Positions 2,927 to 61,817 of a stretch of DNA of 64,000 nt are shown here, one piece after another (the first letter of the stretch is position 1; the number at the start of each line of letters is the position of its first letter). The notes under the pieces were generated by a model, which did no database searches, was not told the origin of the DNA, and saw only the letters and a program-made list of their open reading frames with translations. The translations under genes and the position numbers were made by a program. Source of the stretch: Escherichia coli (lineage in GTDB: Bacteria > Pseudomonadota > Gammaproteobacteria > Enterobacterales > Enterobacteriaceae); the NCBI RefSeq assembly GCF_011045215.1, contig NZ_CP049201.1. One strand, 5' to 3'.

Positions 2927-3105
2927 ACGTAATTGCCGGATGCGACGCACGAGTGTTACGCCTGCCGCATCCGGCGATTTTCGTCGCTTACCCTAAATCC
3001 GCCATCAACATCTTCGATTTTACGTAGGTCGGATAAGGCGTCCACGCCGCATCCGACGATTTTCGTCGCTTACCCTAAATCCGCCATTAACACTTTGGAT
3101 TTACG
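2927..3105. repeat. REP-type palindromes with a tandemly duplicated ~88-bp unit (REP arm + argA 3' terminus)
   Basis: Palindrome gccggatgcgacgc...gcctgccgcatccggc; segment cgattttcgtcgcttaccctaaatccgccat occurs twice (approx 2969-3010 and 3057-3092), second copy overlapping the argA stop region. Confidence 0.6.
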
Positions 3106-6244: not shown

Positions 6245-7342
6245 ATGAAAGGACGTTGGGTAAAGTACCTTCTTATGGGCACGGTTGTGGCAATGCTTGC
6301 CGCCTGCTCTTCCAAACCAACCGATCGCGGACAGCAATATAAAGACGGGAAATTTACCCAGCCTTTCTCTCTGGTGAACCAACCAGATGCCGTTGGCGCG
6401 CCGATTAACGCCGGTGATTTTGCCGAGCAAATTAACCATATCCGTAATTCGTCACCGCGTCTGTATGGCAACCAGAGTAATGTTTATAACGCGGTGCAAG
6501 AGTGGCTGCGCGCAGGCGGTGATACCCGCAATATGCGCCAGTTCGGCATTGATGCCTGGCAGATGGAAGGTGCCGACAATTATGGTAACGTGCAGTTTAC
6601 AGGCTATTACACGCCGGTAATTCAGGCGCGCCATACCCGCCAGGGCGAGTTCCAGTATCCGATTTACCGTATGCCGCCAAAACGTGGTCGTCTGCCGTCT
6701 CGTGCGGAGATCTACGCGGGGGCATTGAGCGATAAATACATCCTCGCTTACAGCAACTCTCTGATGGATAATTTCATTATGGATGTGCAGGGTAGTGGGT
6801 ATATCGACTTTGGTGATGGCAGTCCGCTTAACTTTTTCAGCTATGCAGGGAAAAACGGTCATGCCTATCGCAGCATTGGTAAGGTGCTGATCGACCGTGG
6901 CGAAGTGAAAAAAGAAGATATGTCGATGCAGGCGATTCGTCACTGGGGCGAAACACACAGTGAAGCCGAGGTTCGCGAGCTGCTGGAACAGAACCCGTCT
7001 TTCGTTTTCTTTAAACCGCAATCTTTTGCACCGGTGAAAGGGGCAAGTGCGGTGCCGCTGGTTGGCCGTGCTTCTGTTGCCTCTGATCGTTCAATTATTC
7101 CGCCAGGTACAACCTTGCTGGCAGAAGTGCCGCTGCTGGATAATAACGGCAAATTTAACGGTCAGTATGAACTGCGTCTGATGGTGGCACTGGATGTCGG
7201 TGGCGCAATCAAAGGCCAACACTTCGATATCTATCAAGGGATCGGGCCGGAAGCCGGACACCGCGCAGGTTGGTACAACCACTATGGACGTGTCTGGGTG
7301 CTGAAAACGGCTCCGGGCGCAGGTAACGTCTTTAGCGGCTGA
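6245..7342 (+). CDS. mltA: Membrane-bound lytic murein transglycosylase A MltA (lipoprotein, 365 aa)
   Basis: Track ORF 5948-7342 is an artefactual upstream extension across the tRNA; true start at MKGRWVKYLLMGTVVAMLAACSS (lipobox LAAC). Confidence 0.92.
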   Translation: MKGRWVKYLLMGTVVAMLAACSSKPTDRGQQYKDGKFTQPFSLVNQPDAVGAPINAGDFAEQINHIRNSSPRLYGNQSNVYNAVQEWLRAGGDTRNMRQFGIDAWQMEGADNYGNVQFTGYYTPVIQARHTRQGEFQYPIYRMPPKRGRLPSRAEIYAGALSDKYILAYSNSLMDNFIMDVQGSGYIDFGDGSPLNFFSYAGKNGHAYRSIGKVLIDRGEVKKEDMSMQAIRHWGETHSEAEVRELLEQNPSFVFFKPQSFAPVKGASAVPLVGRASVASDRSIIPPGTTLLAEVPLLDNNGKFNGQYELRLMVALDVGGAIKGQHFDIYQGIGPEAGHRAGWYNHYGRVWVLKTAPGAGNVFSG

Positions 7343-7580
7343 TGTGATATTCTGTATGCCGTTTTTACGGATATGACAGGGTGAGGGATAACCTCACATC
7401 CTGATTATTGACTAAGTGCGCGTTGTTCATGCCGGATGCGGCGTGAACGCCTTATCCAGCCTACAAATCATGCAAATCCAAAATATTGCAGGAGTTATGT
7501 AGGCCTGATAAGCGTAGCGCATCAGGCATTTATGCGTTTAGGGTGAGGGATAACCTCGCCCTTTTTAATTCTGAGGTGCT
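7343..7580. repeat. REP/BIME-like palindromic cluster between mltA and tcdA
   Basis: gccggatgcggcgtgaacgccttatccagcctaca and aggcctgataagcgtagcgcatcaggc REP-type palindromes; small hairpin gggtgagggataacctc present twice (7379-7397, 7541-7561). Confidence 0.6.
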
Positions 7581-8387
7581 ATGTCTGTGGTAATTAGTGA
7601 TGCATGGCGTCAGCGTTTTGGTGGCACAGCGCGTCTGTATGGTGAAAAAGCGTTGCAACTGTTTGCTGACGCGCATATTTGTGTGGTTGGTATCGGTGGT
7701 GTCGGTTCCTGGACGGCGGAAGCGCTGGCGCGCACGGGGATTGGCGCAATCACGCTTATCGATATGGATGATGTGTGCGTCACCAATACCAATCGGCAAA
7801 TTCATGCCCTGCGCGATAACGTTGGGCTGGCAAAAGCGGAAGTCATGGCGGAACGTATTCGCCAGATTAACCCGGAGTGCCGTGTAACGGTGGTGGATGA
7901 TTTCGTGACGCCGGATAACGTAGCGCAATATATGAGTGCCGGTTATTCGTACGTGATTGATGCCATTGATAGTGTACGGCCCAAAGCGGCGCTGATTGCT
8001 TATTGTCGGCGCAATAAAATTCCGCTGGTCACGACCGGTGGCGCGGGTGGGCAGATTGACCCAACGCAGATTCAGGTTACCGATCTGGCGAAAACGATTC
8101 AGGACCCGCTGGCGGCGAAGTTGCGTGAGCGCCTGAAAAGCGATTTTGGCGTAGTGAAAAACAGTAAAGGTAAGCTCGGCGTGGATTGCGTGTTCTCTAC
8201 CGAAGCATTGGTGTACCCGCAGTCAGACGGCACGGTGTGTGCGATGAAAGCCACGGCGGAAGGACCAAAGCGGATGGATTGTGCATCTGGATTTGGCGCG
8301 GCAACTATGGTGACCGCCACCTTTGGGTTTGTTGCGGTTTCTCATGCGCTGAAGAAGATGATGGCGAAAGCGGCGCGTCAGGGGTAA
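7581..8387 (+). CDS. tcdA: tRNA threonylcarbamoyladenosine dehydratase TcdA/CsdL (268 aa, ThiF/MoeB-type E1-like)
   Basis: 268-aa ORF with GIGGVGSW nucleotide-binding motif; synteny with csdAE. Confidence 0.92.
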   Translation: MSVVISDAWRQRFGGTARLYGEKALQLFADAHICVVGIGGVGSWTAEALARTGIGAITLIDMDDVCVTNTNRQIHALRDNVGLAKAEVMAERIRQINPECRVTVVDDFVTPDNVAQYMSAGYSYVIDAIDSVRPKAALIAYCRRNKIPLVTTGGAGGQIDPTQIQVTDLAKTIQDPLAAKLRERLKSDFGVVKNSKGKLGVDCVFSTEALVYPQSDGTVCAMKATAEGPKRMDCASGFGAATMVTATFGFVAVSHALKKMMAKAARQG

Positions 8388-36089: not shown

Positions 36090-36215
36090 GACAGAAAACC
36101 AAAACCGGCTCTATCTGGAGCCGGTTTGAGATTGATGCTAAACGCAAAATAGCCTGTTGTGCTATGTATCAGGTCTACATCATTTTTTAATTCATTGAAT
36201 TTAATTGGTTTTGTA

Positions 36216-36246
36216 GGCCGGATAAGGCGTTAACGCCGCATCCGGC
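36216..36246. repeat. REP element between gudD and barA
   Basis: ggccggataaggcgttaacgccgcatccggc, classic REP palindrome. Confidence 0.6.
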
Positions 36247-36320
36247 ATAAACACAGGCACTTTGTCACCAATCTGAAACCAGCGTCATAAAAAGCCGATT
36301 GCTACTCGACAAGACGTCCG

Positions 36321-61674: not shown

Positions 61675-61800
61675 GCTGCCGGATGATCCTGCCTACGGTT
61701 CTGGACTGGGGACCTGTAGGCCTGATAAGACGCGTCAAGCGTCGCATCAGGCGCTGAATGTCGGATGTGGCGTGCAGCCTACAAATCACACAAATTCAAT
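61675..61800. repeat. REP cluster at the convergent ygcQ/ygcP junction
   Basis: gtaggcctgataagacgcgtcaagcgtcgcatcaggcgc and related REP-type palindromes. Confidence 0.55.
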
Positions 61801-61817
61801 TGGTTACGATTATCCCG

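What the first reader, a model, noticed from the sequence alone, without database searches (positions are those of the whole stretch)
7379..7561. Duplicated small hairpin bracketing a REP pair between mltA and tcdA
The motif gggtgagggataacctc(a/g)c occurs at 7379-7397 and 7541-7561, flanking two REP palindromes. The second copy is followed by a T-run and could act as a terminator or as the tcdA upstream boundary. The arrangement looks like a REP/BIME insertion that duplicated its target hairpin.
Basis: seen in the sequence. Interest (0 to 1): 0.2.

Follow-up and report, generated by a model that had tools for sequence, protein, structure and literature searches.

The report
BIME-1 insertion duplicated mltA terminator
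A known small repeat element of E. coli (a BIME-1, two REP palindromes around an IHF site) sits between mltA and tcdA, flanked by two copies of the mltA terminator hairpin. Half of E. coli strains lack the element and have one hairpin, and other BIME-1 sites show the same hairpin duplication, which gives a testable clue to how these repeats move.

Summary
A 20-nt direct repeat (one mismatch; 22-23 nt including decayed ends) at 7378-7399 and 7540-7562 brackets a 140-nt BIME-1: A arm, Y REP, IHF-type linker, inverted Z1 REP and a truncated B arm.

- **Right copy:** a 9-bp hairpin plus T-run, 18 nt before the tcdA ATG. It is the mltA terminator.
- **E. coli population:** 2751 of 5425 complete genomes carry this filled allele. 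The sampled remainder are 162 nt shorter, and the three aligned have exactly one hairpin plus T-run.
- **Outgroups:** Citrobacter, Enterobacter and Salmonella have one hairpin. E. albertii and Escherichia sp. E1V33 share the filled allele with the same truncated B junction. This points to one old insertion, so E. coli empties are probably later precise excisions.
- **Generality:** 6 of 23 independent BIME-1 loci have locus-specific 18-31-nt aligned hairpin repeats abutting the element ends. Two further polymorphic loci (pitA-uspB, mscS-fbaA) have single-copy empty alleles; three others show 0-5 nt duplications.
- **Ends:** BIME-1 ends form ~16-nt terminal inverted repeats, shared by REP-less elements that made the same hairpin duplication in Kosakonia and Cedecea.

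The element is known. The terminator-hairpin duplication was not found in the literature I could read.

The parts
6245..7342 (+). mltA coding sequence (stop codon 7340-7342)
   Evidence: ORF ending at 7342. Annotated as mltA in matching E. coli genomes. The start is inferred from the 1098-nt length of b2813 in K-12.
7378..7399 (+). Left copy of the duplicated target. This is the mltA terminator hairpin without its T-run; the last bases are decayed (CCTCACAT versus CCTCGCCCT).
   Evidence: It folds at -14.7 kcal/mol with help from the first bases of the element.
7400..7430 (+). A arm of the BIME-1 (CCTGATTATTGACTAAGTGCGCGTTGTTCAT). Its outer half is the left terminal inverted repeat.
   Evidence: Aligned to the consensus TCAGATTGTTGACAAAGTGCGCGTTGTTCAT derived from other loci.
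7431..7464 (+). Y-type REP palindrome
   Evidence: Exact match to the Y REP head; tail CTTATCCAGCCTAC.
7465..7498 (+). L linker with an IHF-consensus-like site (AAATCCAAAATATTG)
   Evidence: Sequence. Rfam RF02751 ES036/CssrF matches 7464-7506 at 46.5 bits against a gathering score of 37.6. The same linker is present in 23 other BIME-1 loci.
7499..7527 (+). Z1-type REP palindrome, inverted relative to the Y REP
   Evidence: Forms an inverted repeat with the Y REP tail (I1).
7528..7539 (+). Truncated B arm (ATTTATGCGTTT). The terminal ~13 nt of the family consensus (GTCATCAGTCTCA) are missing.
   Evidence: E. albertii and Escherichia sp. E1V33 have the same truncation.
7540..7562 (+). Right copy of the duplicated target: an intact 9-bp hairpin
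   Evidence: -17.2 kcal/mol. It is the only copy present in the empty alleles.
7562..7566 (+). T-run completing the intrinsic terminator of mltA. It lies in the tcdA leader, 15 nt before the ATG.
7581..8387 (+). tcdA coding sequence
   Evidence: ORF; annotated as tcdA in matching genomes.

Best explanation
The two small hairpins are the two copies of a target-site duplication. It was made when a BIME-1 element inserted at the 3' base of the stem of the mltA intrinsic terminator, between the stem and its T-run. BIME-1 is also called RIP or RIB; its order is A arm, Y REP, IHF-site linker, inverted Z1 REP, B arm.

The whole 22-23-nt hairpin was copied. The right-hand copy keeps the T-run and still terminates mltA just upstream of tcdA. 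The left-hand copy lost the T-run, so mltA transcripts should now run through the BIME-1 to the regenerated terminator.

The two direct repeats flanking a palindromic insert also make the insertion reversible by precise deletion. This most simply explains why about half of E. coli genomes have the single-hairpin allele.

Shown here: the insertion/deletion polymorphism, its exact borders, the ancestral single-hairpin state, and the recurrence of the pattern at other BIME-1 loci and in other genera.

Inferred: how the duplication arises. My preferred mechanism is that a protein recognising the conserved ~16-nt terminal inverted repeats, with IHF bending the centre, joins the element across the base of the terminator palindrome while it is extruded as a hairpin or cruciform. 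A short stagger in space then becomes a duplication of the whole palindrome once the DNA is relaxed and repaired. Attack on the unextruded site would give the 0-5-nt duplications seen at other loci. I rate this mechanistic step at about 0.35.
For: - **Borders:** the three shorter E. coli alleles aligned differ from the window by exactly one repeat unit (162 nt) and retain one hairpin plus T-run.
- **Ancestral state:** single-hairpin alleles occur in Citrobacter amalonaticus, C. sedlakii, Phytobacter, several Enterobacter and Salmonella arizonae. This makes one copy ancestral.
- **Identity of the insert:** the 140 nt between the repeat copies match the published BIME-1 size of 140 bp (PMC1187871). 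They match the family consensus from 23 other loci, and the linker hits Rfam ES036.
- **Generality, statistics:** left-flank versus right-flank alignments of 23 independent BIME-1 loci give scores of 15.5-23 at 6 loci, against a maximum of 12 in 506 cross-locus pairs. Every one of these repeats is a hairpin abutting the element ends.
- **Generality, hairpins:** stable hairpins abut the A end in 11/23 loci and the B end in 9/23, against 1/23 and 4/23 control windows.
- **Generality, empty alleles:** at pitA-uspB and mscS-fbaA the empty alleles carry one copy of the 26-27-nt and 33-36-nt repeats.
- **Other genera:** independent events at this same terminator in Kosakonia (L022) and Cedecea-like genomes (L045, L049/L057) duplicated the resident hairpin around ~130-150-nt inserts. 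In L022, L045 and L057 at least one end matches the BIME-1 ends (15/16, 13/15, 13/14).
- **Inverted repeats:** the family's terminal inverted repeats match at 13/16 positions.
- **Age:** E. coli, E1V33 and E. albertii share the idiosyncratic truncated B junction, indicating one old insertion.
Against: - The hairpin duplication is not universal. Of six polymorphic BIME-1 loci compared with their empty alleles, three show only 0-5 nt of duplication and small target replacements, although the element still abuts a terminator hairpin.
- Duplication lengths (about 0 to 36 nt) and frequent truncation of the A or B arm are not what a fixed-stagger transposase gives.
- No enzyme was identified. No IS-sized element with these inverted repeats exists in the 1.67 Mb held locally.
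- This copy lacks the right terminal repeat.
- Whether the E. coli empty alleles are excisions or introgressed ancestral alleles is inferred, not shown.
- Terminator function and read-through into the BIME-1 were not measured.
Confidence: 0.85

Rival explanations
1. Same insertion, different mechanism: replication template switching. A nascent strand stalls at the terminator hairpin, switches to a donor BIME-1 elsewhere and copies it. It then returns by microhomology upstream of where it left and re-copies the hairpin. No transposase-like cut is involved.
For: - Duplication length varies from about 0 to 36 nt.
- Small target replacements occur at rlmC-artJ and cmoB-torZ.
- The A or B arms are truncated at several loci.
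- The truncated right junction at mscS-fbaA has a TTGC microhomology.
- The argA 82-nt insertion in this window looks like a switch within the 12-nt REP head shared by the resident and inserted palindromes.
Against: It gives no reason for the ~16-nt terminal inverted repeats to be conserved across Escherichia, Kosakonia and Cedecea elements with unrelated interiors. It also does not explain the constant full length (132-137 nt between the two terminal repeats). The ends abut hairpin bases within 0-2 nt on both sides. No donor was found for the argA insert.
Confidence: 0.3
2. Same insertion, made by the REP-associated tyrosine transposase (RAYT, TnpA_REP) through an IS200/IS605-like single-strand pathway acting on the two REP hairpins.
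For: BIME-1 has two inverted REPs with 25-31 nt of conserved sequence outside them. This resembles IS200/IS605 ends, which are cut at a distance from the hairpins. TnpA_REP cleaves and rejoins BIMEs in vitro and is the proposed disseminator (PMC3333891; PMC8266576).
Against: IS200/IS605-type transposition makes no target duplication (PMC3333891 and PMC2817692), yet a 22-36-nt duplication is seen here. Elements with the same ends but no Y or Z1 REPs made the same hairpin duplication in Cedecea and Kosakonia. This points to the terminal repeats, not the REPs, as the mobility determinants.
Confidence: 0.15
3. The two hairpins are an older tandem duplication or an ancestral pair unrelated to the REPs. 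The REPs landed between them later, and single-hairpin alleles are simply deletions.
For: Deletion between 20-nt direct repeats is easy. Because the filled allele is shared with E. albertii, the E. coli empty alleles probably are deletions.
Against: - No allele with two hairpins and no insert was seen in 80 genera-wide loci or in the sampled E. coli classes.
- Outgroups have one hairpin.
- The repeats abut the ends of the element.
- The same configuration recurs with different, locus-specific hairpins at five other of 23 loci and in other genera. Independent prior duplications cannot explain this.
Confidence: 0.04
4. Chance resemblance of two short hairpins.
For: None beyond the shortness of the motif.
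Against: 18/18 identity; 0.09 matches of the 17-mer expected in 64 kb even with 3 mismatches allowed. The population indel has exactly the repeat period.
Confidence: 0.01

Closest known systems
BIME-1 / RIP / RIB elements of E. coli (Gilson 1991; Boccard and Prentki 1993; Oppenheim 1993; Bachellier 1994, 1997)
   Same: Y REP, conserved L linker with an IHF site and inverted Z1 REP. Single copy, about 140 bp, extragenic at the 3' end of a transcription unit. Present or absent among natural isolates (PMC1187871, PMC3333891).
   Different: Nothing in the element itself; this is a member. The accessible descriptions do not mention the flanking duplication of the terminator hairpin, the terminal inverted repeats of the A and B arms, or the abutment on hairpin bases. 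The original papers were not held, so they may already describe some of this.
Correia elements (CREE) of Neisseria and other bacterial MITEs
   Same: About 100-155 bp, terminal inverted repeats, a central IHF site, intergenic, present or absent between strains, flanked by a target duplication (own knowledge and PMC3184786).
   Different: MITEs give a short fixed duplication (TA for Correia). Here the duplication varies from about 0 to 36 nt and often equals a whole terminator palindrome. No parent IS is known.
CRISPR spacer integration by Cas1-Cas2 with IHF (type I-E), and casposons
   Same: Geometry only. The two joining reactions occur at the two borders of a palindromic repeat, so the whole palindrome is duplicated. 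Cas1-Cas2 is reported to prefer cruciform-forming sequences next to AT-rich DNA, and IHF is involved (own knowledge, not tested here).
   Different: Cas1-Cas2 substrates are about 33-bp prespacers, not 150-bp elements with inverted repeats. No link to cas genes was tested.
Class C group II introns
   Same: They home to the position just after intrinsic terminator hairpins, recognising the structure (own knowledge).
   Different: They are retroelements encoding a reverse transcriptase and make no duplication of the hairpin.
REPINs mobilised by RAYTs (Bertels and Rainey 2011)
   Same: Two inverted REPs as the replicative unit; slow duplication; excision events observed (PMC3116915).
   Different: No target duplication is expected or reported. 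Here conserved arms outside the REPs and a long duplication are present.

Membership tests
BIME-1 (RIP/RIB) | One Y-type and one Z1-type REP in inverted orientation | tested here: met
   Y REP at 7431-7464 and Z1 REP at 7499-7527.
BIME-1 (RIP/RIB) | Conserved long (L) linker of about 34 nt carrying an IHF consensus | tested here: met
   Linker at 7465-7498 aligns with the linkers of 23 other loci. Rfam ES036 scores 46.5 bits against a gathering score of 37.6. The IHF-like site has one or two departures from the family's AATTCAATATATTG.
BIME-1 (RIP/RIB) | Flanking A and B arms | tested here: inconclusive
   The A arm is complete (7400-7430; alignment score 44). Only the first 12 of 25 nt of the B arm are present.
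BIME-1 (RIP/RIB) | Single copy, extragenic, at the 3' end of a transcription unit; present or absent among strains | tested here: met
   Lies between the mltA stop codon and tcdA. 2751 of 5425 genomes are filled and the rest are shorter.
BIME-1 (RIP/RIB) | Binds IHF | not testable with these tools
   Needs a footprint or ChIP experiment.
Intrinsic (Rho-independent) terminator (copy 2) | G+C-rich stem-loop immediately followed by a T-run, downstream of a stop codon | tested here: met
   9-bp stem with 6 G-C pairs, 5-nt loop, tail TTTTAATTCT; -17.2 kcal/mol, z = -3.9. Conserved across genera.
Intrinsic (Rho-independent) terminator (copy 2) | RNA 3' ends map to the T-run | not testable with these tools
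   Needs Term-seq or 3' RACE.
MITE (non-autonomous DNA transposon) | Terminal inverted repeats | tested here: inconclusive
   The family consensus ends match at 13/16 positions. This particular copy lacks the right repeat.
MITE (non-autonomous DNA transposon) | Short target duplication of fixed length | tested here: not met
   Duplications are about 0-1, 4-5, 22-23, 26-27 and 33-36 nt at different loci.
MITE (non-autonomous DNA transposon) | A parent IS with the same ends | tested here: inconclusive
   None found in the 1.67 Mb held locally. No collection-wide search was possible.
REPIN / RAYT-mobilised element | IS200/IS605-like insertion without target duplication | tested here: not met
   A 22-23-nt duplication is present here, and similar ones at five other of 23 loci.
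REPIN / RAYT-mobilised element | Dependence on the genome's RAYT gene | not tested
   Neither RAYT presence nor its correlation with filled alleles was examined.

The most novel reading that the evidence does not exclude
BIME-1 and related ~140-150-bp enterobacterial elements are inverted-repeat-bearing, IHF-bent mobile elements. They home to the base of intrinsic terminator hairpins and often duplicate the whole palindrome. This would be a structure-defined, variable-length target duplication with the geometry of CRISPR spacer integration. It regenerates the terminator, making insertion nearly neutral, and leaves direct repeats that allow precise excision. If so, this is an undescribed integration mode, and it makes the long-open question of how REP/BIME sequences spread directly testable with a plasmid-borne terminator as bait.
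Probability: 0.35. Interest if true: 0.65.

Novelty: already known. Interest (0 to 1): 0.4.

Why it matters
How REP/BIME sequences disseminate is stated to be unknown in the two mechanistic papers I could read (PMC3333891 from 2012, PMC8266576 from 2021).

This locus and its relatives give concrete anatomy. The element has conserved terminal inverted repeats outside the REPs. Its ends sit within 0-2 nt of terminator hairpin bases. In roughly a quarter to a third of loci the hairpin is duplicated on both sides.

That would explain three things: why BIME-1 lies at the 3' ends of transcription units, why insertion is tolerated (the terminator is rebuilt), and why whole BIME-1s are cleanly present or absent among strains (the repeats permit precise loss).

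It also suggests a simple capture assay. For annotation, the left hairpin should not be called a second terminator, and the 162-nt indel is a convenient strain marker.

Tried and rejected
- **Viral contigs:** a scan for the linker pattern gave 28 hits, none in a REP context, so they are chance matches.
- **Donor of the argA REP insert:** a megablast search of all E. coli complete genomes found no match.
- **Original BIME, RIB and RIP papers:** Bachellier 1997 was tried by PubMed id and by PMC1207841; PMC413762 and PMC333889 were also tried. None are held. Literature searches for a described hairpin or terminator duplication found nothing relevant.
- **K-12 RefSeq table:** no repeat features are listed at this locus.
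- **L233:** this locus has the cleanest 23-nt repeat, but it is not from E. coli, so no empty allele could be retrieved.
- **pgm locus (L185):** too rearranged to interpret; one allele carries an IS200.
- **fepA-entD BIME-1:** essentially fixed, so uninformative.
- **Longer decayed duplication:** I considered that the sequence after copy 1 was a decayed copy of the T-run and ribosome-binding region. I rejected this once the A-arm consensus showed those bases belong to the element.
- **IS-sized partner:** no pair of the terminal repeats at IS spacing was found in the DNA held locally.

Full report
**1. The observation**

The window sequence shows AGGGTGAGGGATAACCTCAC at 7378-7397 and AGGGTGAGGGATAACCTCGC at 7540-7559, 162 nt apart. 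The repeat finder reports the 18-nt identical core as the only direct repeat in 7250-7650. The 17-mer occurs nowhere else in the 64 kb even with three mismatches allowed, against 0.09 expected. A scan of the whole window for local direct repeats of at least 17 nt found only this pair, the CRISPR repeats near 52.3 kb, and one other REP-flanking pair at argA.

Copy 2 forms a 9-bp stem followed by TTTTT. It is flagged as the only strong terminator-like site here and folds at -17.2 kcal/mol. The tcdA ATG is at 7581. Copy 1 has no T-run. Its 3' arm has decayed (CCTCACAT), but it still folds at -14.7 kcal/mol because the first bases of the insert (CCTG) pair with CAGG.

**2. What lies between the copies**

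- 7431-7464 is a Y-type REP and 7499-7527 is an inverted Z1-type REP.
- They are separated by a 34-nt linker with an IHF-consensus-like site.
- The linker matches Rfam ES036/CssrF above its gathering score.
- This is the BIME-1 (RIP/RIB) architecture as described in PMC3333891 and PMC1187871. The latter gives a size of 140 bp; the sequence between the repeat copies is 140 nt.

**3.

Of 5425 E. coli complete genomes with a match, 2751 carry the full-length (filled) allele. In the evenly spaced sample of the rest, the chromosomal matches were in two pieces spanning 268-269 nt instead of 431, exactly one repeat period shorter. Three such alleles (ATCC 25922, JNEC-KY177, CREC-544) were fetched and aligned. 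Each has one hairpin followed directly by the T-run.

A scan of one genome per species with TcdA as query returned 80 loci. Single-hairpin 75-77-nt intergenic regions are found in Citrobacter amalonaticus, C. sedlakii, Phytobacter massiliensis and several Enterobacter. Salmonella arizonae also has one hairpin.

**4. Age and direction of change**

The GTDB E. coli representative, Escherichia sp. E1V33 and E. albertii all have the filled allele. All three have the same unusual right junction, in which the B arm is cut off after ATTTATGCGTTT and joined to AGGGTGAGG. Sharing that idiosyncrasy argues for one insertion before these lineages split.

The E. coli empty alleles are then most simply precise deletions between the two repeats. 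Consistent with repeated loss, both left-flank haplotypes 30-50 nt from the indel occur with both states:
- The window (filled) and ATCC 25922 (empty) share one haplotype.
- L005 (filled) and CREC-544 (empty) share the other.

Recombination could also produce this pattern.

In E. albertii, copy 1 reads AGAGTGAGAAATAATCTCGCTCT. Two stem pairs have changed on both sides (G-C to A-T), and it still folds at -12.3 kcal/mol. This hints that the left hairpin is kept for its structure there.

**5. Is the hairpin duplication a property of BIME-1?**

A metagenome scan with the Y-REP tail plus the start of the linker returned many E. coli-like contigs. From these, together with the window's own copy, came 23 distinct canonical BIME-1 loci.

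*Element ends.* Their flanks define conserved arms: A is TCAGATTGTTGACAAAGTGCGCGTTGTTCAT and B is AATTTTGCGTTTGTCATCAGTCTCA. The outer 16 nt of the two arms are inverted repeats, matching at 13/16 positions.

*Flank repeats.* I aligned the 50 nt outside the A arm with the 50 nt outside the B arm.

| Comparison | Score |
|---|---|
| Cross-locus pairs (n = 506) | mean 6.5, maximum 12 |
| Six loci, own left flank versus own right flank | 15.5-23 |
| A seventh locus | 11 |

In each of the six, the aligned repeat is a locus-specific 18-31-nt hairpin touching the element ends. The barA-gudD BIME-1 in this window and one further locus (L118) show decayed versions of the same pattern.

*Hairpins at the ends.* Hairpins of -8 kcal/mol or better abut the A end in 11/23 loci and the B end in 9/23, against 1/23 and 4/23 control windows. 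The gap between hairpin base and element end is usually 0-2 nt.

**6. Filled versus empty at other polymorphic BIME-1 loci**

| Locus | Filled genomes | Duplication | Notes |
|---|---|---|---|
| pitA-uspB | 1940 | 26-27 nt | Whole terminator hairpin; one copy in the empty allele |
| mscS-fbaA | 3719 | 33-36 nt | Hairpin plus A-run plus 8 nt; truncated B arm; TTGC microhomology |
| yvcK-uvrB | 3675 | 4-5 nt (CTTC(G)) | A end abuts the hairpin's 3' base |
| rlmC-artJ | 3191 | ~0-1 nt | Nine target bases replaced |
| cmoB-torZ | 3883 | none | Truncated A arm; B end abuts the terminator |

Insertion next to a terminator hairpin is therefore the constant feature. Duplication of the entire hairpin occurs in about half of the polymorphic cases examined, counting mltA-tcdA.

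**7. Other genera, same terminator**

In Kosakonia sp. S29 (L022) and in Cedecea-like genomes (L045, and L049/L057), the resident mltA terminator hairpin is duplicated around a 130-150-nt insert. In Cedecea that hairpin has a different sequence (ACGGGCTGTATAATCAGCCCGT). Close relatives have the single-hairpin site.

The Cedecea-like inserts lack REPs, and the Kosakonia insert carries REP-like palindromes of a different type; none has Y or Z1. At least one end of the L022, L045 and L057 inserts matches the BIME-1 arms: 15/16, 13/15 and 13/14 positions, with none of 500 shuffled queries scoring as high. For L049 only a 7-mer matched. The L045 insert has a central IHF-type site. The ends, not the REPs, are what these elements share.

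**8. Mechanism**

What is shown: there was an insertion with a target duplication equal to the hairpin. It occurred at the stem/T-run boundary and rebuilt the terminator on the tcdA side.

How the duplication arises is inferred. Three readings were weighed.

- **Attack across an extruded hairpin (preferred, about 0.35).** Conserved terminal inverted repeats across genera, a constant element length (132-137 nt between the two repeats), a central IHF site and ends flush with hairpin bases point to a protein-mediated event at a folded palindrome. A short stagger across the base of an extruded hairpin or cruciform would appear as a duplication of the whole palindrome. The same enzyme on unextruded DNA would give the short duplications.
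- **Replication template switching at hairpin-stalled forks (about 0.3).** The spread of duplication lengths, the truncated arms and the small target replacements fit this better.
- **RAYT / IS200-like pathway (about 0.15).** This predicts no duplication and does not explain elements lacking Y/Z1 REPs that share the same ends.

No enzyme was identified.

**9. Comparison with what is known**

The element is a member of BIME-1. It is present in K-12-like genomes at this locus (e.g. H5 and H10), and BIME-1 presence/absence among isolates is established (PMC1187871 citing Bachellier 1997).

The papers I could read state that the dissemination mechanism is unknown and that IS200/IS605-type elements make no target repeats. 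None mentions terminator-hairpin duplications or the terminal repeats of the arms. The original 1990s descriptions were not available, so I cannot exclude that this was noted there.

**10. Verdict**

The finding is a correctly read, ordinary element with a well-supported history. Its kind is already known. Its added value is the general pattern it led to, which I could not find described. That pattern gives a practical handle on how BIME-1 moves.

Noticed in passing
window 2934-3092 (argA-recD intergenic region and the argA 3' end): An 82-nt insertion made of 14 nt, an unusual Y-type REP (3023-3056) and a 34-nt second copy of the argA stop-codon region. The direct repeats are at 2975-3008 and 3057-3090, or 47 nt if the shared 12-nt REP head is counted. 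In the sampled ranking of the 5425 E. coli complete genomes, including the best hit, none has it; the best matches are exactly 82 nt shorter. No donor was found.
   Followed up: partly
window 36103-36300, minus strand (barA-gudD): A full-length BIME-1 (36127-36276) with both terminal repeats. On one side is an intact terminator hairpin (AACCGGCTCCAGATAGAGCCGGTT plus T-run). On the other is a decayed copy of it (AATCGGCTTTTTATGACGCTGGTT, 15/24 matching). The element is present in 5205 of 5424 E. coli genomes.
   Followed up: partly
window 7343-7353: TGTGATATTCT immediately after the mltA stop codon. The pattern TGTGnTAnnCT is conserved at this position in Citrobacter, Enterobacter, Leclercia, Kosakonia, Salmonella and others, and it looks like an extended -10 promoter for tcdA. 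If it is real, the hairpin plus T-run lies in the tcdA leader as well as ending mltA, and the BIME-1 moved this promoter 162 nt further from tcdA.
   Followed up: no
L007 (E. albertii), left hairpin copy just upstream of the BIME-1: Copy 1 reads AGAGTGAGAAATAATCTCGCTCT. Two stem pairs changed on both sides (G-C to A-T) and the hairpin is kept at -12.3 kcal/mol. The first ~15 nt of the A arm are deleted.
   Followed up: partly
L026 1292-1800 (Enterobacteriaceae bacterium UBA5654, mltA-tcdA region): The last ~25 nt of mltA (GGGGACGGGTAACGTGTTTAGCGGC) recur five times, each with a ~100-nt unit containing a CCCTCTCCC...GGGAGAGGG-type palindromic repeat. This is a tandem amplification of a repeat element together with the gene's 3' end.
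   Followed up: no
L045, L049, L057 (Cedecea-like genomes) and L022 (Kosakonia sp. S29), mltA-tcdA intergenic region: Inserts of 130-150 nt without Y or Z1 REPs, flanked by duplications of the resident terminator hairpin. In L022, L045 and L057 at least one end resembles the BIME-1 terminal repeats; only a 7-mer matched in L049. The L045 insert has a central IHF-type site.
   Followed up: partly
window 52303-52576: A CRISPR array with type I-E-like repeats (GAGTTCCCCGCGCCAGCGGGGATAAACCG) at 61-nt spacing.
   Followed up: no
window 61716-61810: A REP cluster with a partial BIME-1-like linker (CCTACAAATCACACAAATTCAATTGGTTACG) next to Z-type REPs. It is probably an atypical or broken BIME.
   Followed up: no
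window 7464-7506: The BIME-1 linker scores above the gathering threshold for Rfam RF02751 (ES036/CssrF sRNA). That Rfam family therefore matches the BIME-1 linker at this locus.
   Followed up: no
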